This document shows, one piece after another, positions 1-58,301 of a stretch of DNA of 64,000 nt (positions are counted from its first letter, which is position 1; each line of letters starts with the position of its first letter). A program made the translations under genes and the position numbers. Under the pieces are notes generated by a model that was given only the letters and a program-made list of their open reading frames with translations, ran no database searches and was not told where the DNA came from. Source of the stretch: Ostreococcus lucimarinus (lineage: Eukaryota); the NCBI GenBank assembly GCA_000092065.1, contig CP000582.1. One strand, 5' to 3'.

Positions 1-1090
1 TTTTCTTCGGATCAGTCTCACGTGCCATCGCAATAACGGCGGAACGACATTTTGATCTCCGACATGATGATCTAGGGGTCGCGCGTAAGATATTGTGCGT
101 TGGTTGCCTACTTGCCAAAGAGTTCATCGCCGTCAATTATATGCCGCTTGAGATTTCTTTGTGGTAGGAGAAGTTGCCTGCGATTGCGAATGGGCGCATT
201 TCTAGAGTCAGTAATCGTGTGCATGTGCACACATCATCGCGGAGGAACGATAGTCCGCAATTTGCGTCGGCTTTGGTGCCTGGCGCACCGCACGTATGGA
301 GATAACGTTGACGAAGTGAAATAGATAAGGAAATAGTGATCCTCAGCGGATGACGCGACGCGCGTTTGCGGCACTCTGCAAACACACCGATCGATGGGCG
401 TACCTCAAGATCACACTGCCCGACGTTCCGGTCCGAACTCGAAGCGTTCAATTGCGGCGGACGTGAAAGCTTCACACTGAGGGTTTGTTCGGCCGACGTT
501 GGCGCGCGGCTCCATTTTTTCGGTTTTCATACTAGATTTAACCCACAGGATAGCGGAAACTCAAAACGCTCGAGTTGGATTGTTCATTGTGAAAAACATA
601 CCGCGTTACGTAAAAAAGAATTGGTTTCCCCTGTGATTTGATGATGACTACCGAGCTATCTGTAAACACGAAAGTAACTCGCCGTGCTTTCACTCCGCCC
701 AAGTCGCACCCAGCCGCGGTTGAAGCGCAAGTGGCACTGAGAGATATGCAGCTAAACTGTGTAGGCTCGATGAACTCGCGGTTGTCGGCCAATTTCAAAA
801 GTATCTGTCGACTCATCGAAGCTACAGCTAGTACGGGCCGCTCTTATTTCGTACGTATTCCCTTCACTCTCTGATAATTCTCAAGTCTTCGACGTAGACT
901 CATCCGCTCGATGCGGTTAGTGTATGCAAGGCTTCAAACGAACGTGCAAAGTCGAATTGGCACCGCTGCTCGCCCATAGCAAAGTGGTCAAACGCATTAA
1001 ATGGCTGGATAAGCGGACCGTCCACCAAGCTGAGTTCTCTACCGGGACGTGTTACCGACGTTAGTACTTTGCGCGATAGCACGTACGAAG

Positions 1091-2520
1091 CAGAATTTGT
1101 CCGCACGACACCGAGTTCTAATACTTATTCTCATACTGCGATCTTACCGGGAGTTCGAGGCGTACATCGCCCTAAATCGTATGGAGACAACTTCTCTGTG
1201 AACAGGAAAGGATATCCAATCTGGCCTTAAGTCTCCTGTAATATTGCAATTTTCATTGTACAAACTAGCTCTGCCGTCGTTCTAATCACTAAATTGAAGT
1301 TCACGCTTGCAGCTTCGTGTAAAAGTCGATTTCACGTTCGTAGGTATTTGCGTATTCGGATTCTCAAAGGTAGGCCCCTTGCCAGAGAGCCCCGTTATCT
1401 CTTGAATATTCGCCCAGTCGCCGCGCGTAAAGTTGTAGGTTTGCATCAAATTCAGGACGTCTGGTATACCATCTAGTTCTTTACCCCCTCGAGCTTGACT
1501 AAAAAGCGGACGAGTGAGCAACCGTTTTGTCAAAGAAGCGTACCAGAGGCAAAACTCAAGTTGAGTGCTGCAGCTCCTACCACTTGATCGAAAATGTTGA
1601 TACAACTCTGATAACAGCCGCTGCGATTTTGACTTTGACGACAACTTCCCCAAGAGACTTGGGAATCGATGAGTGTGGCGTTCAGCCTGACCAAATGTTT
1701 CTCTTGAGCCTCTGACGGCAGAGGTTGGCAGGACACATGAAACTATGTTCGCAGGAGGCATCATGGTCCAGTTTTGTGTCTTGTTTATTGTCGTCGCAAA
1801 CACATCTCCTTCTGCTACACGTGACGATGCCGCAGCAACGTGCACAATTCTTTGCAACTCGTTTGTACTGTCTCGCGGGCGCATACACGCATAGTTTTCT
1901 TGAACGAACAGAGGGATCATGTCTGAGTGCTGGAAAACCAGATTAAGCCTCTCATCGAGTGTTTTTAATGGGCTTGGACGAAAAAGAACATCTATTGCTT
2001 GAAAAACACTTGTGGCGACATCTTTTTTCGAAATTTCATTCCTTCCGTGATGCTTCGAGCTCATGCCCCATAGTTGTAGCTGGTTGATACTGGATCGAAG
2101 GTCATTGTTGTTTGCTTCTATGAGAGCATCAACTGCGTCGCTATCAACATCCAAGCGTTGTGAGGCTACAATTTGATTCAAGTACTTTCGGAGCTGGAGC
2201 TTATTTGGCCGTTGGAAAGGTAAATCGACACAATAGTTTGCAAGAGTCTTTAGTTTTTGTGAATATCGGTCGTTGCAGATGCATATGATGGGAATGCGCG
2301 TGTGTTTGATGACTTCTATCAACTCCGAGATACCACCCCGATCGCCACCAGCCATACCATCTACTTCATCCATGATCAGTGCAGTCTTTGTTGATCGCAA
2401 ACCATCAATACCGATGTTACGATTAGTTACAAACTCTCGAACAGTACTCGCCAATGTTCCCGCTATCCCATCACTTACTGCTCCAGTCTTACCTCTTGAA
2501 TCGCTTGCGTTTACGTTCAA
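1091..2520. repeat. Copy A of a 1.43-kb segmental duplication, identical to 3383..4812
   Basis: ORF-track pairs at a constant +2292 offset have identical translations (1294/3586, 1527/3819, 1530/3822, 1682/3974, 1725/4017, 2273/4565). Direct reading confirms identity from cagaatttgtccgcacgac through gcgtttacgttca. Divergence is sharp at both ends. Confidence 0.85.
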
Positions 2521-3141
2521 CGACGTGCACACGTCGTCGCCGAACAAATACCCCGCCCCTCGAGGGGAAAGCCCCCAGCCGGAGACGTCCTCGGGGTCGC
2601 TCCAAAGCAAATCGCACATCGCGCCTTCGTGCGGCACCTCTTGTTTACGATCGATCGTTCGAATCTGATCGATCGTCGTGATGCTCGGGGACAACCCCCC
2701 GTGCACGCAAAATATCTTGTTATCTATGAGCGCAGACAACGAAAGGTAATCGAACACATCCGTGCAATATCGCCACACGTTGACGCTCCCGTATTTGCGC
2801 AAACACTCGTCGTAAAACCCGTACACCTGCGTGATCTGTCGACACTCGTGATTCCCCCGAATGAGATACATTCGATCCGGGTACCTCACCTTCAGCGCCA
2901 GGAGCAACAAAAACGTCTCCACGCTGTAAAACCCGCGATCGACGAAGTCCCCCATGAACAAATAGTTTGTATCCGGGCAGTCGCCGCCGACTTTAAACAG
3001 TTCCAACAAATCGTAAAACTGCCCGTGAATGTCCCCGCATATCGTCATCGTTTGCTCGTTAATCCACCGCACGCGATCGAAATCGTCGCTCGAAAAGTCA
3101 CGCAGCGACGCCTTCGCGTCCCGCATCGCCGAACACATCAA
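1282..3141 (-). pseudogene. Chimeric in-frame ORF of 619 aa: a truncated PP2A/PP4-type catalytic core (about residues 25-230) fused to the RFC1 large-subunit region downstream of the P-loop, from the duplicated copy. Probably a non-functional chimera.
   Basis: The N-terminal 205 aa carry the PPP motifs GDIHGQ, GDFVDRG, GNHE, HGG and SPRGAGY but lack the C-terminal His and tail. The junction at 2520/2521 continues in-frame into [12 protein letters not shown], identical to residues 88-498 of the ORF at 3574..5070. The fragment lacks the Walker A motif GAPGIGKTT. Confidence 0.55.
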
Positions 3142-3350
3142 TGTTGAGCGAAATATCTAACGCGGTGACGCTGTGCGTGAGCGCACCGCTGGATATGTAC
3201 GTCACGCCTGTTTGGCCGATGGCGTGGACGGTGTCTAGGGTGACGTTACCCGACGCCTCGGTGTCGACTCTGCCGTCGATGAGACGCACGGCGGCGGTCA
3301 TGTCCTCCACGGACATGTTGTCGAGCATTAAACGAGTGACGCTGCCCGTC
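3098..3350 (-). pseudogene. C-terminal fragment, about 85 aa, of quinolinate phosphoribosyltransferase (NadC/QPRT). Truncated at its 5' side at the duplication boundary.
   Basis: [64 protein letters not shown] matches the conserved QPRT C-terminus (MLDN...EVSGN.TL......tGVD.IS.GALTHS...LD.S). No upstream QPRT sequence is present. It overlaps the PP2A-fragment reading frame by about 40 nt. Confidence 0.6.
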
Positions 3351-3382
3351 GGGACGTTCGGGTCGTGCAGAATTTGTTCGTG

Positions 3383-4812
3383 CAGAATTTGTCCGCACGA
3401 CACCGAGTTCTAATACTTATTCTCATACTGCGATCTTACCGGGAGTTCGAGGCGTACATCGCCCTAAATCGTATGGAGACAACTTCTCTGTGAACAGGAA
3501 AGGATATCCAATCTGGCCTTAAGTCTCCTGTAATATTGCAATTTTCATTGTACAAACTAGCTCTGCCGTCGTTCTAATCACTAAATTGAAGTTCACGCTT
3601 GCAGCTTCGTGTAAAAGTCGATTTCACGTTCGTAGGTATTTGCGTATTCGGATTCTCAAAGGTAGGCCCCTTGCCAGAGAGCCCCGTTATCTCTTGAATA
3701 TTCGCCCAGTCGCCGCGCGTAAAGTTGTAGGTTTGCATCAAATTCAGGACGTCTGGTATACCATCTAGTTCTTTACCCCCTCGAGCTTGACTAAAAAGCG
3801 GACGAGTGAGCAACCGTTTTGTCAAAGAAGCGTACCAGAGGCAAAACTCAAGTTGAGTGCTGCAGCTCCTACCACTTGATCGAAAATGTTGATACAACTC
3901 TGATAACAGCCGCTGCGATTTTGACTTTGACGACAACTTCCCCAAGAGACTTGGGAATCGATGAGTGTGGCGTTCAGCCTGACCAAATGTTTCTCTTGAG
4001 CCTCTGACGGCAGAGGTTGGCAGGACACATGAAACTATGTTCGCAGGAGGCATCATGGTCCAGTTTTGTGTCTTGTTTATTGTCGTCGCAAACACATCTC
4101 CTTCTGCTACACGTGACGATGCCGCAGCAACGTGCACAATTCTTTGCAACTCGTTTGTACTGTCTCGCGGGCGCATACACGCATAGTTTTCTTGAACGAA
4201 CAGAGGGATCATGTCTGAGTGCTGGAAAACCAGATTAAGCCTCTCATCGAGTGTTTTTAATGGGCTTGGACGAAAAAGAACATCTATTGCTTGAAAAACA
4301 CTTGTGGCGACATCTTTTTTCGAAATTTCATTCCTTCCGTGATGCTTCGAGCTCATGCCCCATAGTTGTAGCTGGTTGATACTGGATCGAAGGTCATTGT
4401 TGTTTGCTTCTATGAGAGCATCAACTGCGTCGCTATCAACATCCAAGCGTTGTGAGGCTACAATTTGATTCAAGTACTTTCGGAGCTGGAGCTTATTTGG
4501 CCGTTGGAAAGGTAAATCGACACAATAGTTTGCAAGAGTCTTTAGTTTTTGTGAATATCGGTCGTTGCAGATGCATATGATGGGAATGCGCGTGTGTTTG
4601 ATGACTTCTATCAACTCCGAGATACCACCCCGATCGCCACCAGCCATACCATCTACTTCATCCATGATCAGTGCAGTCTTTGTTGATCGCAAACCATCAA
4701 TACCGATGTTACGATTAGTTACAAACTCTCGAACAGTACTCGCCAATGTTCCCGCTATCCCATCACTTACTGCTCCAGTCTTACCTCTTGAATCGCTTGC
4801 GTTTACGTTCAT
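3383..4812. repeat. Copy B of the 1.43-kb segmental duplication. It lies inside the intact RFC1-like gene and includes about 190 bp of its 3' flank.
   Basis: Same as copy A. Copy B is embedded in a complete 498-aa RFC1-like ORF, so it is the likely parental copy. Confidence 0.85.
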
Positions 4813-5070
4813 CGTTTGAAATCCAAGTTCTCGGCAAATAAGGATGGCACTCGTGGTCTTGCCAATTCCAGGCGCTCCACTTATGAGTATTGCTTTTCGG
4901 GTCGACACTTTTGAAGCTTTTCCTGTGGCTTGATTCCCTGGCCAGTTTGAGAGCCAAGTTCGGAGAGTAGCGATGGCGCTACTATTTCCGACCAAGTCTG
5001 CGAGTACTCTCGGAGAAAATTTGTCAGTCCACAAATTTGCAGAATTTTCTATACCATAGTAGGCATGCAT
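3574..5070 (-). CDS. RFC1: Replication factor C large subunit (RFC1-like) AAA+ clamp-loader module. It has no BRCT region, which may be absent or on an unseen upstream exon.
   Basis: 498-aa ORF with LWTDKFSPRV...ILISGAPGIGKTT (Walker A), [15 protein letters not shown] (Walker B/sensor) and ICICNDR. The C-terminal domain resembles RFC1. An in-frame TAG lies 63 nt upstream of the ATG. Confidence 0.8.
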   Translation of the reverse strand: MHAYYGIENSANLWTDKFSPRVLADLVGNSSAIATLRTWLSNWPGNQATGKASKVSTRKAILISGAPGIGKTTSAILICRELGFQTMNVNASDSRGKTGAVSDGIAGTLASTVREFVTNRNIGIDGLRSTKTALIMDEVDGMAGGDRGGISELIEVIKHTRIPIICICNDRYSQKLKTLANYCVDLPFQRPNKLQLRKYLNQIVASQRLDVDSDAVDALIEANNNDLRSSINQLQLWGMSSKHHGRNEISKKDVATSVFQAIDVLFRPSPLKTLDERLNLVFQHSDMIPLFVQENYACMRPRDSTNELQRIVHVAAASSRVAEGDVFATTINKTQNWTMMPPANIVSCVLPTSAVRGSRETFGQAERHTHRFPSLLGKLSSKSKSQRLLSELYQHFRSSGRSCSTQLEFCLWYASLTKRLLTRPLFSQARGGKELDGIPDVLNLMQTYNFTRGDWANIQEITGLSGKGPTFENPNTQIPTNVKSTFTRSCKRELQFSD

Positions 5071-5458
5071 AGAAGTCCTCGCCAGTTTGCTGGCGGGATA
5101 CTCCTCGAAGCCAACTCTCTTCCTGCTGCTCAGTGGCTCCTATTCAAACTTGTCAAGGCAGTGCGTTTGTGCTTACTTATTATCGTACCATGATGCGCAC
5201 AGTCTTTGTGTCTACGATTCAGTCCAGTGGCGATGCGTATAGCGTTTTCACACCGCGAACTGCGCCGCTCGACGCGACGCCGCGGCGCCCCTCCGCCGCG
5301 CGTCGAGTCTAAATTTTCACGCCTCTGTACATGGGCTCAAAACGCCCACAATGCGCACATTTACGACCGCGCGACACCGCCGCGCGACCCCGCGCGCGCC
5401 CGCGTCCGCGCGCGCGCGCGCGCGCCCGCGCCGTCCGCGCCGTCCGCGACGCCGATCG

Positions 5459-6238
5459 ATGTCGACCTCGACCGCGACCGCGACGACGACGACGACGGCG
5501 ACGCCGTCGCGCGCGCGCGCGCGCGGACGCGGCGCCGTCGCGCGCGCGTCGTCGTCGTCGTCCGCGTCGTCGTCCGCGCGCGCGCGCGACGCGGACGACG
5601 CGCGGCGCGCGCGCGCGCGCGGGCGCGTGCACGTCATCTGCGGACCGATGTTCGCGGGCAAGACGACGCACCTGATGCGATGCGTCGAGCGCGAGCGCGC
5701 GCGCGGACGGACGGTGTTCGTGATCAAATCCGAGCTCGACGTCGAGCGGTTCGGCGAGGACGCGCGCGACGCGCTGATCGCGCACGACGGGAAGCGCGTG
5801 CGGTTCGACGCGAGCGACGACGGCGGAAGGGTGCGCGCGGTGCGGACGCTGGACGCGGCGGGACTGGGCGCGGACGCGGCGGCGTGCGACGCGGCGGACG
5901 TCGTCGCGGTGGACGAGGCGCAATTCATGGGAGACTTGGCGCCGTTCGCGCGACGGTGCGCGGAGGAGCTGGGACAGACGGTGTACGTGTGCGGGTTGGA
6001 CGGGGATTACAGGCGGGAGAGGTTCGGGGGGGTGTTGGATTTGATTCCGCTGTGCGACACGGTGACGCGATTGAGAGGGACGTGCGCGGAGTGCGGAGAC
6101 GAGAGTTTATTCAGTCGACGCGTCGAGGCGAGCGAGGACGTGGTGCGCGTGGGAGGGAGGGATAAGTACGCGCCCGTGTGTCGAGCGTGTTACGTCGCGG
6201 CGTCGACGCGGGAGAGAGGGTCGGCGTCGGCGCGGTGA
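5459..6238 (+). CDS. TK1: Thymidine kinase, TK1 type, with a low-complexity Thr/Ala/Ser-rich N-terminal extension
   Basis: VHVICGPMFAGKTTHLMRCV (P-loop), VVAVDEAQFM, LDGDYRRERFGGVLDLIPLCD, and a C-terminal zinc ribbon CAECG...KYAPVCRACY. The ORF-track start at 5351 is probably upstream of the real ATG near 5459. Confidence 0.85.
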   Translation: MSTSTATATTTTTATPSRARARGRGAVARASSSSSASSSARARDADDARRARARGRVHVICGPMFAGKTTHLMRCVERERARGRTVFVIKSELDVERFGEDARDALIAHDGKRVRFDASDDGGRVRAVRTLDAAGLGADAAACDAADVVAVDEAQFMGDLAPFARRCAEELGQTVYVCGLDGDYRRERFGGVLDLIPLCDTVTRLRGTCAECGDESLFSRRVEASEDVVRVGGRDKYAPVCRACYVAASTRERGSASAR

Positions 6239-27170: not shown

Positions 27171-28829
27171 ATGGCGGCGCAGGCGAGGGCGTTGGAGTCC
27201 CAGGTGTGGCGCGAGCGGGACGAGGAACAGGACGACGACAAAGCATCGACGGCCGACGACCGGCGCGCGCAGGAAGAGGAGATGTCGATTCTCGTGAGTA
27301 TTTTCTGCGACTGCGCGAGAGGCGACGACGCGAACGCCGTGAGGGAGGCTTTGGCTTCGGGACGCGACGTCGGCGACGCGACTTCGAGCGGGCGGTTGTT
27401 TCGCGCAGAACTGGAGATCGACGTCGAGATCGACGGCGAAGCAGAGGTCTTGAACGGAGATTCCACGCATCTTGTTGCTGCTTTACCGCCGATATTTCTG
27501 GAATTCATCTTCCCGAGAAGGTATCCCTCGCGCGAGGCGCCGAAGTTCGTCATTCGTAGTGATTGGTTGTCGAACAGCCATTTGAGCGCGATGTGCGCGA
27601 GATTGGACGCCATATGGGAAGACCAGCGTCCAAACGGTGAGCCAATAGTGTATGAATGGACTCAATGGATAAAGAACGACGCGATGCGAGACGTATTGTT
27701 GAATGCGCAGGGCGCGCTCGACGTCTCAGCTCGAGGTCTTGGGTGGGCGGACGGCGAGTTTGAAGTCGACGCGAGAGCCGTCGTTACGGCTCGAGACGCG
27801 AATGAGGCGGTGTTTACGATTTTACGTGCAGACGCACATGCTAGACGACGAGCATTTCTGATCAGCTGCGATAATTCGTGCTCAATGTGCCTCGCGGATG
27901 ACATCAAAGGCGTCGACGTTCGACGAGTGTCGAGCGCCTGCGCGCACACGTATTGCGTCGAGTGCGTGACGCGCATGGCGCGCGTGCACGTGAGCGAAGG
28001 CTCTGTCTTACGCTTGGTCTGCCCGGAATGTTCGTGTGCGTTCGATCCTCATGTGCTGCGCGCCATTCTGAACCATGATGAGTATGAAAAGTATGAAGCC
28101 ACGCTGCTCGCGCGCACGCTCGACTCGATGGCGGATCTCGTGTACTGCCCTCGATGCGAGCATCCCGTTATTGAAGAAGAAGATCAAAATTTTGGGCGAT
28201 GTCCCGGTTGCTTCTTCGCTTTCTGCACGCTTTGCCGCGCGTCGTGGCACGCTGGGTCCGAGTGCCTCAACGCTGAGCAAAAGCTCGCGGTGCTCGAGGC
28301 GAGACGTCGCGGTGACTCGAAAATGTCCGAAGAAGCGTTGCGTCAGTACAAAGAACAAATCGCCGACGTATCCGCGGCCGCATACGTCGAACGGAACGGC
28401 CGCAAGTGCCCAGTGTGTGGTCAAGGGGTTGAGAAAAACGAAGGCTGCAACAAGATGACGTGCGCGTGCGGCGCCTACTTTTGTTGGAAGTGCGGTCAAA
28501 AGCTTGAAGGCGACGGGTATTCTCATTACCGAAACGTCAACGGCGAACCCGGCACGAGCACGTGTCAACTCTTCGACCTCGACGCCATCGAAGCGTGGGA
28601 GCGCGATATGGCCGCGCTTCGCGTCGACGGTCGCGCGCCTCGCGCGCCGAGAGCCGCCGACGTCATCTCCTGCATCCGCTGCAAGGCCCAAAACGTCGCC
28701 TTCGATCGAAACAACCACGTTCGATGTTGGGCCTGCAACTCTTCTTTTTGCGCCGCGTGCAGGCGCGTCGTTCTGAAGACGTCCGAGCACTACGCGCCGA
28801 GCGCCCCGTGCAAGCAGCACCGAAAGTGA
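27171..28829 (+). CDS. RBR-type E3 ubiquitin ligase (RING1-IBR-RING2) with an N-terminal RWD domain, RNF14/ARA54-like
   Basis: RWD-like N-terminus (EEEMSILVSIFCDC). RING1 CSMCLADD...CAHTYCVECV. IBR CPRCEHPV...CPGCFFAFCTLCRASWH. RING2 CPVCGQGVEKNEGCNKMTCACGAYFCWKCG. It starts 18 nt after the DPM2 stop. Confidence 0.75.
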   Translation: MAAQARALESQVWRERDEEQDDDKASTADDRRAQEEEMSILVSIFCDCARGDDANAVREALASGRDVGDATSSGRLFRAELEIDVEIDGEAEVLNGDSTHLVAALPPIFLEFIFPRRYPSREAPKFVIRSDWLSNSHLSAMCARLDAIWEDQRPNGEPIVYEWTQWIKNDAMRDVLLNAQGALDVSARGLGWADGEFEVDARAVVTARDANEAVFTILRADAHARRRAFLISCDNSCSMCLADDIKGVDVRRVSSACAHTYCVECVTRMARVHVSEGSVLRLVCPECSCAFDPHVLRAILNHDEYEKYEATLLARTLDSMADLVYCPRCEHPVIEEEDQNFGRCPGCFFAFCTLCRASWHAGSECLNAEQKLAVLEARRRGDSKMSEEALRQYKEQIADVSAAAYVERNGRKCPVCGQGVEKNEGCNKMTCACGAYFCWKCGQKLEGDGYSHYRNVNGEPGTSTCQLFDLDAIEAWERDMAALRVDGRAPRAPRAADVISCIRCKAQNVAFDRNNHVRCWACNSSFCAACRRVVLKTSEHYAPSAPCKQHRK

Positions 28830-29018
28830 AGCGAAAGCTTGAAAACTGAACGAAAGCTCTCACAGCGCCCTCGCGTTCCCGCACTCGCGCGCGCTCGATG
28901 TGATGGGCGCCGAGCGCCCCGTGCAAGCAGCACCGAAAGTGAAGCCAAAGCTTGAAAACTGAACGAAAGCTCTCACAGCGCCCTCGCGTTCTCGCACTCG
29001 CGCGCGCTCGATGTGATG
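28793..29018. repeat. Tandem duplication, 2 x about 113 bp with 2 mismatches, spanning the RNF14-like stop codon and the UreF start
   Basis: gcgccgagcgccccgtgcaagcagcaccgaaagtgaagc[g/c]aaagcttgaaaactgaacgaaagctctcacagcgccctcgcgtt[c/t]tcgcactcgcgcgcgctcgatgtgatgg occurs twice back-to-back. The second copy supplies the UreF ATG. Confidence 0.8.
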
Positions 29019-29843
29019 GAAGCGTTCGTTTTAATCGACCCGTTGCTACCGACGGGCGCGTTCGCGCACTCGCTCGGGCTCGAGCCCGCGCGAATCGCGC
29101 GCGCGGTCGGGACACTGGACGAGACGTCTCGCGAAGCCTCGCGCGCGGTCGAGACGTACGCGCGCGAGTGCGCGCAGAGCGCGATCGACGGTCAACTTCC
29201 GTTCGCGCTCGCCGCGCGCGCGCTCGCGGTGCGAGCGAACGAAAAACGCGCGCGCGAGGGAGACGAGGACGGGACGACGCGCGCGTGGCGAGCGGCGAAC
29301 GCGGAGTGCGCCGCGCTCTGCGCGTCGAACGCCGTGAATCGACGCGCGAGCGCGGGCACGGGCGCGGCTTTACTACGAGCGTCGATAGTGGCATTCGGCG
29401 AGGACAGAAGTTGGTACTTGAGGGCGATTAAAAGAACGCTGCGACGACCGCCGCCGCTCGGCTTGGGCGAGGCGCACCACGCGTGCGTCTTCGGCGCGGT
29501 GAGCGCGATCGCGAATTTAGACGCCGAGGCGTGCGCGCGCGCGTACGTGTACTGCATCATGCGCGATGTGTGCTCGGCGGCGACGCGATTGAACGCGAGC
29601 GGACCTTTGGAAACCGTCGCGGCGTTGCGGCGTTGCGTCGAAGACGCCGAGGCGGCGTGCGCCGTCGCCGTCGCCGAGTTCAACGCCTCCACCGTCCGCG
29701 CGTCGACGATCGACGACGACGACGACGATGACGACGACGCCATCATGAATTATCTCCGTCGCGCGCCGGCGACGTCGGCACCGATATACGAAGCCGTCCA
29801 GGGCGCGCACGACCACGCGCGCGCGCGCCTCTTCAACTCCTAG
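29013..29843 (+). CDS. UREF: Urease accessory protein UreF
   Basis: LIDPLLPTGAFAHSLGLE, CIMRDVCSAATRLNASGPLE, and C-terminal YEAVQGAHDHARARLFNS are colinear with plant UreF. Confidence 0.85.
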   Translation: MMEAFVLIDPLLPTGAFAHSLGLEPARIARAVGTLDETSREASRAVETYARECAQSAIDGQLPFALAARALAVRANEKRAREGDEDGTTRAWRAANAECAALCASNAVNRRASAGTGAALLRASIVAFGEDRSWYLRAIKRTLRRPPPLGLGEAHHACVFGAVSAIANLDAEACARAYVYCIMRDVCSAATRLNASGPLETVAALRRCVEDAEAACAVAVAEFNASTVRASTIDDDDDDDDDAIMNYLRRAPATSAPIYEAVQGAHDHARARLFNS

Positions 29844-56984: not shown

Positions 56985-58301
56985 TCAAAAGGACCCGTGT
57001 CGGGCGACGATTTCTGATACTGATGAACCATTAAGTATGTCTTGACGTATACTGCTCTCAGAAAATACTCGCTTTAAAGCTTCTTCAATCACGATATTTC
57101 CAAACCGTCTTGGGATAATCAGTGTTCCTTCTTGATCACTGAAAATCAAATCTCCCGGACAGCACGAGACGCCATCCAAGCTAATACACTGATTTGTTGA
57201 CTCTACTGTAGCAACACCTCTCACATCAGAGCAGGTTGAACCGGCTGCGTAGACGGGAAAGTTCGAACATTTCACTTCCACTGTATCGCGTGTAAAACCA
57301 TTCGTGACGAAACCGGCGGCTCCCCTCGTTATGGCAATGTGAGCATTAAGATCGCCAAAATATGCTCGTCCCTTCATCGGATTTTCTACTACGATAACGT
57401 CACCGAAGCCGACGTAGTTGTATGATTTTAGAGCACCATAGATTCCCCTGAGATCTTCACTTTCACGAAGAGGCCTTAACTTAAGTGTGCAAGCACGACC
57501 GAAGACCTTGCTCAGTGCGCCTTGTGGTTTTAAGCCGAAGACCACTCGTCCACTTACGCCCATATCATCCAGCGTGTCTGATAAAATGGCACTGGTGAGA
57601 TGTAGTTTGGCGCACCTCAAGCGAGATAGACCAGCGACGCGGTGCGCTAAAGCGATATTGTTTGCAAGAGCGAAGTCAACTTCGTAGTTGATATCAACTG
57701 CTTCTTCTGGCGTAACATGCAGCATGTGTGGTTTGTTCCCTATCCTTCGCCGAGTCAGCTTCGCCGCATCTCTCGTAATGTTGTACAGCCCCATGGTCTC
57801 CACGGTAGTCGTTGGCAAATCAACTGAGTTGGGAATATTTTGGATATCATAGCTCGGCCCTGCCTTTGTCCACGTATACAGTTTATCATCGCGAACAGTG
57901 CACGCGGAGTCATAAACACCGGACATCACGCTCTCGACACCTTTCTTAATCGTTTCTGGATGTATGAACGGGCTTGTGCACAGCGCCTGCACATAGATTT
58001 CGGCATCGAATCGCTCAACTTCGTTCATGAACAGAGTGTTACCGTCCGTCTTGTTCGTGGCCAACGCCTCGTCCCGCTTTAGGAAAACTAACTTTGGATT
58101 ATCGCTCGCAAGAAATTCCGCCACCTTGAAAACATCATCGGACTCAGAGTCCAAGACAACTTTGTCAATAAAAGGACACTCGAAGAGCAACTTTTCCAAA
58201 GTGTGCAGGAAGAGTGGTTTGGAATCCAGCAGTTTCGTGTTCTTGCTCTCTACGCGACTCGATGTACCTTTGCACGGCACAAACGCAACGATCCGCGCCA
58301 T
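56985..58301 (-). CDS. Fusion: N-acylneuraminate/CMP-sugar cytidylyltransferase (CTP_transf_3) N-domain plus RraA-like (class II pyruvate aldolase/MenG-like) C-domain. It lies in a low-GC island.
   Basis: N-terminus RIVAFVPCKGTSSRVESKNTKLL..KPLFLHTLE...VVLDSESDD matches the CMP-NeuAc/KDO synthetase family. C-terminus VGFGDVIVVEN...GDLNAHIAITRGAAGFVTNGFTRD...FPVYAAGSTCSDVRG...CPGDLIFSDQEGTLIIP matches RraA/HMG-CHA aldolase. Local GC is about 47% against about 68% in the flanks. Confidence 0.6.
   Translation of the reverse strand: MARIVAFVPCKGTSSRVESKNTKLLDSKPLFLHTLEKLLFECPFIDKVVLDSESDDVFKVAEFLASDNPKLVFLKRDEALATNKTDGNTLFMNEVERFDAEIYVQALCTSPFIHPETIKKGVESVMSGVYDSACTVRDDKLYTWTKAGPSYDIQNIPNSVDLPTTTVETMGLYNITRDAAKLTRRRIGNKPHMLHVTPEEAVDINYEVDFALANNIALAHRVAGLSRLRCAKLHLTSAILSDTLDDMGVSGRVVFGLKPQGALSKVFGRACTLKLRPLRESEDLRGIYGALKSYNYVGFGDVIVVENPMKGRAYFGDLNAHIAITRGAAGFVTNGFTRDTVEVKCSNFPVYAAGSTCSDVRGVATVESTNQCISLDGVSCCPGDLIFSDQEGTLIIPRRFGNIVIEEALKRVFSESSIRQDILNGSSVSEIVARHGSF

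What the first reader, a model, noticed from the sequence alone, without database searches (positions are those of the whole stretch)
1091..4812. Recent segmental duplication creates an in-frame PP2A::RFC1 chimera next to a QPRT fragment
A 1,430-bp block is present twice at 100% identity: 1091..2520 and 3383..4812. Copy B sits inside an intact RFC1-like gene. Copy A carries the RFC1 3' two-thirds plus about 190 bp of 3' flank. It is joined in-frame to a PP2A/PP4 catalytic core that lacks its first 25 and last 80 residues. Immediately upstream sits a C-terminal-only quinolinate phosphoribosyltransferase fragment. Three unrelated gene pieces therefore abut with no spacer in the order QPRT, PP2A, RFC1, all on the minus strand. 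The PP2A/RFC1 junction shows short microhomology around AACGTAAAC. Either this is a very young chimeric gene or pseudogene from ectopic repair, or it is a collapsed or mis-joined assembly region. Both readings need follow-up. The locus also coincides with a low-GC island.
Basis: seen in the sequence. Interest (0 to 1): 0.65.

Follow-up and report, generated by a model that had tools for sequence, protein, structure and literature searches.

The report
Strain-specific duplication stitched with gene scraps
In the reference genome of the tiny marine alga Ostreococcus lucimarinus, a 1.4-kb piece of a DNA-replication gene is duplicated and the join is filled with short exact copies of other genes, which looks like the scar of error-prone DNA repair and not a new working gene, and wild populations of the same species lack it.

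Summary
The repeat is real. The window is Ostreococcus lucimarinus CCE9901 chromosome 2, at the edge of its large low-GC region, which has been proposed as a mating-type locus.

Copy B lies in the intact RFC1-like gene XP_001416472.1, which lacks a BRCT domain. The 862-bp spacer is a patchwork:
- 15 nt of templated junction stutter;
- the last 78 codons of QPRT;
- 66 nt of unknown origin that look like coding sequence;
- 19 nt of RFC-derived stutter;
- 528 nt (codons 48-223) of the PP4 catalytic subunit. The intact PP4 gene, XP_001417307.1, is on another chromosome.

Each traced piece is 100% identical to its donor. Junction microhomologies are 1, 3 and 5 nt.

All 17 metagenome contigs that span the locus show the single-copy arrangement, and none carries a junction.

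Best reading (0.75): a very recent tandem duplication private to this strain, made in vivo by serial template switching (MMBIR-like or polymerase-theta-like). The 618-aa open frame is most likely a by-product without function. A cloning or assembly artefact (about 0.12) cannot be excluded without reads. The kind of event is ordinary and the example is clean, so interest is modest.

The parts
1..1089 (-). Native sequence that directly follows the RFC 3' flank in wild genomes. It is low GC (0.50) and has no convincing ORF. In L003 a beta-ketoacyl synthase gene starts about 27 nt inside the window's left edge.
   Evidence: all 17 metagenome contigs run from window 3382 straight to 1089...1; the KAS gene lies at L003 2935-4203.
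1090..2519 (-). Copy A of the 1,430-bp repeat. It holds RFC codons 88-498 plus 192 nt of 3' flank.
   Evidence: 100% identity, sharp ends.
2520..3047 (-). PP4 catalytic-subunit piece of 528 nt (176 codons, residues 48-223), in sense and in frame. The 3 nt TCA at 3045-3047 repeat 2517-2519, which is microhomology with the RFC break site.
   Evidence: 100% identical to the PP4 gene on L012 from 3047 down to 2520; the donor protein is XP_001417307.1, on a 931,964-bp chromosome.
3048..3066 (-). RFC-derived stutter. TCGTTTG equals RFC 4812-4818, the 7 nt that natively follow the repeat end. It is followed by C+TCGTT+AATCCA, which resembles a re-copy of RFC 4812-4816 and 4820-4825 (tentative).
   Evidence: The 10-mer 3045-3054 equals 4809-4818 and sits exactly on both breakpoints.
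3067..3132 (-). A 66-nt piece of unknown origin. Its composition looks coding in the frame of the chimeric ORF (GC by codon position 0.58/0.46/0.81), and it reads [22 protein letters not shown].
   Evidence: No source was found in the window or in any fetched locus, and there was no protein match.
3133..3366 (-). QPRT piece: the last 78 codons or so of the gene, ending on the first base of its TAA stop. It is in sense but out of frame with the chimeric ORF.
   Evidence: It is 100% identical to L020-L022. TTCTG at 3368-3372 is microhomology with the RFC flank.
3367..3381 (-). 15-nt templated junction filler, ACGA+ACAAATTCTGC in gene orientation. It consists of the first 4 nt of the QPRT piece plus the last 11 nt of the RFC flank, so ACAAATTCTGCACGA occurs twice in tandem across the join.
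   Evidence: three-way alignment of the chimera, the QPRT parent and the native flank.
3382..4811 (-). Copy B of the repeat, inside the intact gene.
3574..5070 (-). Intact BRCT-less RFC1-like gene of 498 aa, XP_001416472.1. It is the first gene inside the low-GC region, with GC3 0.43.
1282..3138 (-). Chimeric open frame of 618 aa from the first ATG: unknown piece + RFC stutter + PP4 48-223 + RFC 88-498.
   Evidence: It is not on record anywhere.
5200..5650 (.). Sharp boundary between the low-GC region and standard GC, with (CG)n-rich inverted and direct repeats at 5375-5640 in the 5' part of the thymidine kinase gene.
   Evidence: Metagenome contigs often break here.

Best explanation
The reference strain O. 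lucimarinus CCE9901 carries a very recent complex tandem duplication that is private to the strain, or at least rare in the wild. It lies at the first gene inside the low-GC outlier region of chromosome 2.

Relative to the wild-type order (TK, RFC, flank, KAS), 2,292 bp have been added. They consist of a second copy of the last 1,430 bp (effectively 1,437 bp) of the RFC gene region and an 862-bp filler at the duplication junction.

The inferred mechanism is one replication- or repair-coupled event with about five template switches. Read on the gene strand, synthesis did the following:
1. It left the RFC 3' flank at 3382.
2. It primed on the QPRT gene through a 5-nt microhomology, stuttered once (15 nt) and copied 234 nt.
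3. It jumped to an unidentified coding locus and copied 66 nt.
4. It returned briefly to RFC just upstream of the future repeat (7-19 nt, with stutter).
5. It jumped to the PP4 gene on another chromosome (3-nt microhomology) and copied 528 nt.
6. It re-entered RFC at the very next base, 4811 (1-nt microhomology), and copied 4811 to 3382 a second time.

This is the signature of microhomology-mediated break-induced replication (MMBIR/FoSTeS) or of synthesis-dependent, polymerase-theta-type end joining with filler DNA.

Shown: the structure, the donors, their identity, the junction anatomy, and the absence from wild contigs. Inferred: that the event happened in vivo, that it was a single event, and which enzymes did it.

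The 618-aa frame is open because the event is young and the PP4 insert happens to be 176 whole codons in register. It most likely encodes nothing useful.
For: - The repeat is exact and has sharp ends.
- The source genome is identified by exact matches to XP_001416472.1, XP_001416478.1 and XP_001416230.1 on the 895,087-bp chromosome.
- Seventeen independent metagenome contigs, 99.6-100% identical to the window, all carry both native joins (1089|3382 and 4811|4812). None carries any of six junction 24-mers or any filler sequence.
- The J1 28-mer is absent from JGI metagenome contigs.
- The PP4 piece is 528/528 identical to the natural PP4 gene, and the intact donor is on a different chromosome of the same strain.
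- The QPRT piece is 234/234 identical to natural QPRT loci.
- Junction anatomy: 1-, 3- and 5-nt microhomologies; a 15-nt tandem re-copy of the RFC-flank/QPRT join; and the 7 nt that natively precede the repeat re-appearing on the far side of the PP4 insert. An assembler cannot create such sequences, and blunt co-ligation of clone fragments is not expected to either.
- There are no terminal inverted repeats within 1-5300.
- This strain is already described as carrying a recent chimeric duplication, chromosome 21 built from chromosomes 9 and 13 (PMC2367439).
- Complex rearrangements with microhomology are reported in a sister species (PMC13390643).
Against: - No read-level or independent-assembly evidence for the junctions in CCE9901 could be obtained. 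The only contig that exactly matches the reference (L031, Logan SRR23274481) ends at about 5586, before the locus.
- Complete identity of the two copies and of all pieces to their donors is also what an artefact would show.
- The donor of the 66-nt piece was not found.
- Short-read assemblers can skip a loop of the form repeat-spacer-repeat, so the wild contigs show that the duplication is absent or rare there, not that it is impossible.
- The metagenome scan for junction J3 used a pattern that also overlaps the filler, so its null result says little.
Confidence: 0.75

Rival explanations
1. The extra 2,292 bp exist only in the 2007 reference sequence and are an artefact. They could come from a chimeric or rearranged clone, or from a minority variant in the sequenced culture, that was built into the finished consensus.
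For: - The structure is absent from all 17 wild contigs and from the junction scans.
- All identities are 100%.
- The chimeric protein is in no database.
- There is no independent confirmation of the junctions.
Against: - Assemblers join reads and do not create new junction sequence, so the junctions must have existed in cloned DNA.
- Co-ligation of sheared fragments would give blunt joins of kilobase-size pieces in random orientation. What is seen is 66-528-nt pieces, all in sense, with microhomologies, a 15-nt templated re-copy and a return to the exact base of departure in RFC.
- E. coli cannot add algal PP4 or QPRT sequence to a clone.
Confidence: 0.12
2. The structure is real and the PP4::RFC open frame is a young functional gene. 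It could, for example, be a clamp-loader-binding protein carrying a phosphatase-like module, or a dominant-negative regulator, kept open by selection.
For: - The unknown piece, PP4 and RFC are all read in their native frames. The chance of this is about 1/27 if the unknown piece's frame is correctly inferred.
- The ORF is uninterrupted over 618 codons.
- Genes in this outlier region are reported to be highly transcribed (10.1101/2025.04.21.649811).
Against: - The PP4 part stops before RAHQ/SAPNYC, so it lacks a conserved metal-binding histidine and the C-terminal third of the fold (the catalytic motifs are taken from general knowledge of PPP phosphatases).
- The RFC part starts after the Walker A P-loop GAPGIGKT.
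- The ORF has no promoter of its own. It follows 192 nt of RFC 3' flank and an out-of-frame QPRT scrap.
- There has been no time for selection to act, since there are zero substitutions anywhere.
- It is absent from wild populations.
Confidence: 0.08
3. The gene fragments were captured by a mobile element (Pack-MULE, Helitron or LTR-like element), or they are a reverse-transcribed patchwork of mRNAs.
For: - All four traced pieces are exonic and in the same sense orientation.
- MULEs are common in this chromosome region (10.1101/2025.04.21.649811).
- The layout of direct repeat, insert, direct repeat looks superficially like an LTR element.
Against: - There are no inverted terminal repeats within 1-5300.
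- The direct repeat is ordinary single-copy RFC gene sequence in wild genomes.
- The sequence read shows no TC...CTRR Helitron ends, no poly(A) tracts and no target-site duplication beyond the 3-nt TCA.
- No piece spans an intron, so intron loss cannot be scored.
Confidence: 0.05

Closest known systems
MMBIR/FoSTeS complex duplications (microhomology-mediated break-induced replication; fork stalling and template switching), as described for human copy-number variants and yeast. This comparison rests on my own knowledge.
   Same: - Head-to-tail duplication.
- Junction insertions copied from several distant loci at full identity.
- 1-5 nt microhomology at each switch.
- Return to the original template close to the point of departure.
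   Different: - The scale is very small (1.4-kb duplication, 66-528-nt inserts).
- The host is a haploid 13-Mb picoalga.
- The enzymology is untested here.
Filler DNA and templated insertions at double-strand-break repair junctions in plants and animals (polymerase-theta-mediated end joining, or SDSA-like capture of genomic sequence). This comparison rests on my own knowledge.
   Same: - A patchwork of short genomic copies at a repair junction.
- Local stutters that re-copy sequence flanking the break (the 15-nt and 19-nt tracts).
   Different: - Typical polymerase-theta inserts are under 50 nt and come from nearby sequence. Here two inserts are 234 and 528 nt, and at least one comes from another chromosome.
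- The repair also duplicated 1.4 kb.
Structural variation of Mamiellales outlier chromosomes (Ostreococcus SOC/BOC rearrangements, PMC13390643; chromosome 21 of O. lucimarinus, PMC2367439).
   Same: - Same genus, and for chromosome 21 the same strain.
- Recent duplications, translocations and chimeric joins, with short microhomology at fusion sites.
   Different: - The published cases are tens to hundreds of kilobases, mostly on the small outlier chromosome.
- This one is a 2.3-kb event at the boundary of the big outlier region.
- The full-text searches run here found no description of it.
RFC1 (large subunit of the replication factor C clamp loader).
   Same: The duplicated gene has the AAA+ module, the RFC1-type lid and the RFC1 C-terminal domain. 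It is 45-47% identical to BRCT-containing RFC1 proteins.
   Different: - It has no BRCT domain and is only 498 aa long.
- It belongs to a short paralogue group whose O. tauri member (64% identity) is on a 1.07-Mb contig. That this contig is O. tauri chromosome 2 was not shown.
- Its GC3 is 0.43, against about 0.75 for the host genome.

Membership tests
Complex tandem duplication by template switching (MMBIR/FoSTeS type) | Direct head-to-tail duplication that is absent from the ancestral haplotype. | tested here: met
   exact 1,430-bp direct repeat, and 17/17 wild contigs are single-copy.
Complex tandem duplication by template switching (MMBIR/FoSTeS type) | Junction insertions copied from other loci, with the donors left intact. 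| tested here: met
   - PP4: 528/528 identical, with the intact donor XP_001417307.1 on another chromosome.
- QPRT: 234/234 identical to natural loci.
- The donor of the 66-nt piece was not found.
Complex tandem duplication by template switching (MMBIR/FoSTeS type) | Short microhomology at the switch points. | tested here: met
   1 nt at 2519|2520, 3 nt (TCA) at 3045-3047, and 5 nt (TTCTG) at 3368-3372. Two junctions that involve the unknown piece cannot be scored.
Complex tandem duplication by template switching (MMBIR/FoSTeS type) | The junctions are physically present in the organism's DNA (reads or PCR). | not testable with these tools
   No CCE9901 reads were accessible. L031 ends before the locus.
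Polymerase-theta-type templated insertion | Short inserts that re-copy sequence immediately flanking the break. | tested here: met
   The 15-nt tract 3367-3381 equals 4 nt of QPRT plus 11 nt of RFC flank. TCGTTTG at 3048-3054 equals RFC 4812-4818.
Polymerase-theta-type templated insertion | Dependence on POLQ. | not testable with these tools
   This requires genetics.
Transposon-mediated gene capture (Pack-MULE, Helitron, LTR element) | Terminal inverted repeats, Helitron ends or true LTRs, together with a target-site duplication. | tested here: not met
   - No inverted repeat was reported within 1-5300.
- The direct repeat is single-copy gene sequence in wild genomes.
- The ends read lack TC...CTRR.
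Processed retrocopy | Intron loss, a poly(A) tail and a full 3' end of the transcript. | tested here: not met
   - No poly(A) tract at any piece end.
- The QPRT piece stops on the first base of its stop codon.
- No piece spans an intron, so intron loss cannot be scored.
Assembly mis-join or collapse | Joins that occur at sequence shared between the joined regions, without any novel junction sequence. | tested here: not met
   The junctions share at most 5 nt and contain novel templated filler. The structure adds a copy and does not collapse one.
RFC1 clamp-loader large subunit (gene at 3574-5070) | AAA+ ATPase module, RFC1 lid and RFC1 C-terminal domain. | tested here: met
   PF00004, PF25361 and PF08519.
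RFC1 clamp-loader large subunit (gene at 3574-5070) | N-terminal BRCT domain of canonical RFC1. | tested here: not met
   One search finds no BRCT domain. The BRCT-bearing homologues are only 45-47% identical.
Active PPP-family phosphatase (PP4 part of the chimera) | A complete catalytic core, including the C-terminal conserved His (RAHQ) and SAPNYC. | tested here: not met
   the piece ends at ...DDVCTS, 82 residues before the C-terminus, and both motifs lie beyond the break.

The most novel reading that the evidence does not exclude
The rearrangement is real and more than a scar. The boundary of the low-GC region, a candidate mating-type region that is thought not to recombine, could be a hotspot where template-switching repair imports exon-sized copies of genes from standard chromosomes and fuses them in frame. 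That would make the PP4::RFC frame a transcribed, newly born chimeric gene caught within perhaps a few thousand years of its origin. It would also give a mechanism for how these outlier regions acquire new genes and grow.
Probability: 0.08. Interest if true: 0.6.

Novelty: new member of a known kind. Interest (0 to 1): 0.3.

Why it matters
- It corrects how this stretch of a widely used reference genome should be read. The models downstream of XP_001416472.1 are repair debris, not genes. Read recruitment or orthology work on O. lucimarinus chromosome 2 will see a strain-private 2.3-kb insertion.
- If the junctions are confirmed in CCE9901 DNA, it would be a fully resolved, base-level example of multi-step template switching in a picoeukaryote. 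The donors and the ancestral state are known from wild populations, at the edge of the region proposed as the mating-type locus.
- As a class of event it is well known, so its value is as a clean case and an annotation warning. It is not a new biological principle.

Tried and rejected
- Viral or horizontal origin of the low-GC RFC gene. Its nearest named relative is an O. tauri protein on a 1.07-Mb contig. The low GC continues for at least 8.7 kb to the left of the window, so it is part of the outlier region and not an island.
This is plain RFC sequence, and only 1 nt is shared with PP4 at that join.
- Intact PP4 or QPRT genes in the window. There are none.
- Source of the 66-85-nt piece. blastn-short against the window and all loci gave only chance 11-12-mers. 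phmmer of the 32-aa translation against 1.84 billion proteins gave no hit.
- Junction searches. The J1 28-mer and a QPRT/J3 29-mer gave 0 hits in JGI metagenome contigs. Exact-protein look-ups of the chimera (618 and 619 aa and seven shorter starts) and of the 101-aa QPRT-scrap ORF found nothing. The only exception was a 260-aa stretch made purely of RFC sequence.
- P0362 (412 aa) and P0374 (540 aa) looked like possible chimeras. They are a truncated contig call and an N-terminally extended native RFC.
- P0365/L030 is a fold-back chimeric metagenome contig and is unrelated to this junction.
- The Logan contig L031, which is identical to the reference, stops in the GC-rich tract at about 5586 and says nothing about the duplication.
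- The 10-mer shared by 3045-3054 and 4809-4818 is not unusual in length alone, since 39% of shuffles reach 10 or more. Its weight comes only from sitting exactly on both breakpoints.
- The supplements of PMC8557840 and the Palenik 2007 paper were not available.
Full report
**Observation.** A self-comparison confirms one exact 1,430-bp direct repeat, at 1090-2519 (copy A) and 3382-4811 (copy B). There are no mismatches, and identity drops to background (22-30%) immediately outside both ends. It is the only long repeat in the 64-kb window apart from a 113-bp tandem at 28794-29019. On the minus strand, copy B lies inside a 498-aa ORF (3574-5070) with AAA, RFC1-lid and RFC1 C-terminal domains and no BRCT domain. 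Copy A forms the last 412 codons of a 618/619-aa ORF (1282-3138/3141), whose first part matches the calcineurin-like phosphoesterase family. A 101-aa ORF (3098-3403) matches only the C-terminal end of quinolinate phosphoribosyltransferase.

**Where the window comes from.** The 498-aa protein is, residue for residue, XP_001416472.1 of Ostreococcus lucimarinus CCE9901 on the 895,087-bp chromosome. Urease (XP_001416478.1) and DUR3 (XP_001416230.1), both encoded further along the window, are exact matches too. The window is therefore chromosome 2 of the reference strain.

GC is 0.46-0.50 up to about 5250 and 0.55-0.78 afterwards. A 360-kb metagenome contig that continues beyond the left edge of the window stays at about 47% GC for at least another 8.7 kb. 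The locus is therefore not a low-GC island. It is the margin of the big low-GC outlier region of this chromosome, which the literature treats as a candidate mating-type region with sharp boundaries and suppressed recombination (PMC8557840; 10.1101/2025.04.21.649811). The RFC-like gene is the first gene inside that region. Its GC3 is 0.43, against 0.66-0.88 for its neighbours. Its closest named relative is a 553-aa O. tauri protein (64% identity) on a 1.07-Mb contig, and BRCT-bearing RFC1 proteins are only 45-47% identical.

**The ancestral state.** The exact RFC protein occurs on contigs from 79 blocks of public metagenome assemblies. I read seventeen contigs from seventeen samples (L001-L010, L023-L029), which are 99.6-100% identical to the window. 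Every one runs from the TK/RFC side through 3382 and straight on into 1089...1. All seventeen contain both native 24-mers (1089|3382 and 4811|4812). None contains any of six junction 24-mers or any of 2523-3381. A 28-mer across 2519|2520 is absent from the JGI metagenome contig collection. Wild O. lucimarinus therefore has one copy, and the reference has 2,292 extra bases.

**Anatomy of the 862-bp spacer (gene orientation, minus strand).**

| Window coordinates | Content | Evidence |
|---|---|---|
| 3381-3367 | ACGA+ACAAATTCTGC: the first 4 nt of the QPRT piece followed by the last 11 nt of the RFC flank, so the 15-mer ACAAATTCTGCACGA stands twice in tandem across the join. The QPRT parent shares TTCTG with the flank. 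| |
| 3366-3133 | The last 78 codons or so of QPRT, 234/234 identical to natural QPRT loci, ending on the first base of the stop codon. | |
| 3132-3067 | 66 nt with no source in the window or in any fetched locus, and no protein match. GC by codon position (0.58/0.46/0.81) looks like host coding sequence in the frame of the chimeric ORF. | |
| 3066-3048 | Ends in CAAACGA, which equals RFC 4818-4812, exactly the 7 nt that natively precede the repeat. It is preceded by a short RFC-like stutter (tentative). | |
| 3047-2520 | 528 nt = codons 48-223 of the PP4 catalytic subunit, 528/528 identical to the natural gene on L012. The intact 305-aa donor is XP_001417307.1, on a different 931,964-bp chromosome of the same strain. 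| |

The PP4 piece is bracketed by TGA on both sides, a 3-nt microhomology with the RFC break site. It joins copy A with 1 nt of microhomology. In effect RFC sequence runs ...CAAACGA(TGA), then the PP4 insert, then GAACGTAAAC.... Synthesis left RFC and returned to the very next base.

**Interpretation.** Exact copies of several unlinked donors, a duplication, 1-5-nt microhomologies, two local re-copy stutters and a return to the departure point together match serial template switching during replication or break repair. The known models are MMBIR/FoSTeS, or synthesis-dependent end joining with filler DNA of the polymerase-theta type; the match to these models rests on my own knowledge of them. 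An assembler can only join reads, so it cannot create these junction sequences. Co-ligation of sheared fragments in a clone library would give blunt joins of large, randomly oriented fragments. E. coli cannot add algal sequence to a clone. I therefore regard an in-vivo origin as most likely (0.75).

Zero differences between the copies, and between the pieces and their donors, make the event recent. Absence from wild contigs makes it private or rare. Whether it is fixed in the culture is unknown. The same strain is already known for a recently formed chimeric chromosome 21 (PMC2367439). Rearrangements with short microhomology are documented in O. mediterraneus (PMC13390643).

**Is it a gene?** The frame is open, and the unknown piece, PP4 and RFC are all read in their native frames. 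That is mildly unlikely by chance (roughly 1/9 to 1/27), but it was also the reason the locus was noticed. Several points argue against function:
- The PP4 part lacks the N-terminal 47 and the C-terminal 82 residues, including the RAHQ histidine and SAPNYC.
- The RFC part begins after the Walker A loop.
- The ORF sits behind only 192 nt of RFC 3' flank and an out-of-frame QPRT scrap.
- No database holds the protein.

I rate a functional chimera at about 0.08. The intact RFC gene (copy B) keeps its own upstream region and is undisturbed.

**Rivals rejected or down-weighted.**
- Transposon capture: there are no terminal inverted repeats within 1-5300, and the 'LTR-like' repeats are single-copy gene sequence in the wild.
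- Retrocopy: there is no poly(A), the QPRT piece ends at its stop codon, and no intron is spanned.
- Viral origin of the low-GC gene: its relatives are algal and the low GC is regional.

**Limits.** No reads of CCE9901 could be examined. The one contig that exactly matches the reference (L031) stops at about 5586 in the (CG)n-rich tract. Short-read metagenome assemblers can bypass a repeat-spacer-repeat loop, so the wild contigs show rarity and not strict absence. The donor of the 66-nt piece is unidentified.

**Verdict.** The 'chimeric gene' reading is unlikely, and 'assembly collapse' is wrong in kind, although a reference-only artefact remains possible at about 0.12. It is a clean new example of a well-known class of structural variant in a published genome. 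Interest is 0.3.

Noticed in passing
window 3574-5121 (-): The duplicated gene is a short RFC1 paralogue without a BRCT domain and with strongly deviant codon composition (GC3 0.43). It is the first gene inside the low-GC outlier region. Homology to the O. tauri orthologue starts 17 codons upstream of the annotated ATG. A Logan contig encodes a 540-aa form with an upstream ATG where the reference has an in-frame TAG, so the CCE9901 start may be truncated or mis-set.
   Followed up: partly
window 5375-5640: A dense (CG)n / CGT-repeat tract with many imperfect inverted repeats lies exactly at the switch from low to standard GC, inside the arginine/alanine-rich 5' part of the thymidine kinase ORF. 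Metagenome and Logan contigs often end here (L003 starts at 5254, L031 ends at about 5586).
   Followed up: no
L030 (JGI 3300037841, 1,886 bp): A fold-back metagenome contig joins window 4649-5261 (+) to 4834-3553 (-) through a shared CGAGAACT-like stretch. This gives a fake protein, MRIAFSHREL+GFQTMNVNASD. The RFC breakpoint is only about 20 nt from the end of the duplication. It is probably an assembly or amplification artefact, but the proximity is curious.
   Followed up: partly
just left of window position 1 (L001, L006, L007, L009, L010, L023, L024 end 10-32 nt beyond it): Many independent metagenome contigs stop within about 30 nt of the same point, inside the first codons of a beta-ketoacyl synthase gene (L003 2935-4203). 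This suggests a repeated or polymorphic sequence there.
   Followed up: no
window 56985-58301 (-): A 438-aa ORF fuses a cytidylyltransferase (CTP_transf_3) domain and an RraA-like aldolase domain. Its GC3 is 0.49 in a 1-kb low-GC pocket (0.476) within standard-GC sequence. NCBI holds only a 133-aa partial model (XP_001416485.1). It may be a foreign or mis-annotated gene.
   Followed up: partly
window 28794-29019: A tandem duplication of 113 bp at 98% identity lies at the end of one ORF and the start of the next (27171-28829 and 29016-29843).
   Followed up: no
UniRef100_A4RSL4: The UniRef100 cluster of the RFC protein lists two O. lucimarinus members. This suggests that a second annotated model, probably the RFC part of copy A, exists in the published annotation. 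I could not retrieve it.
   Followed up: no
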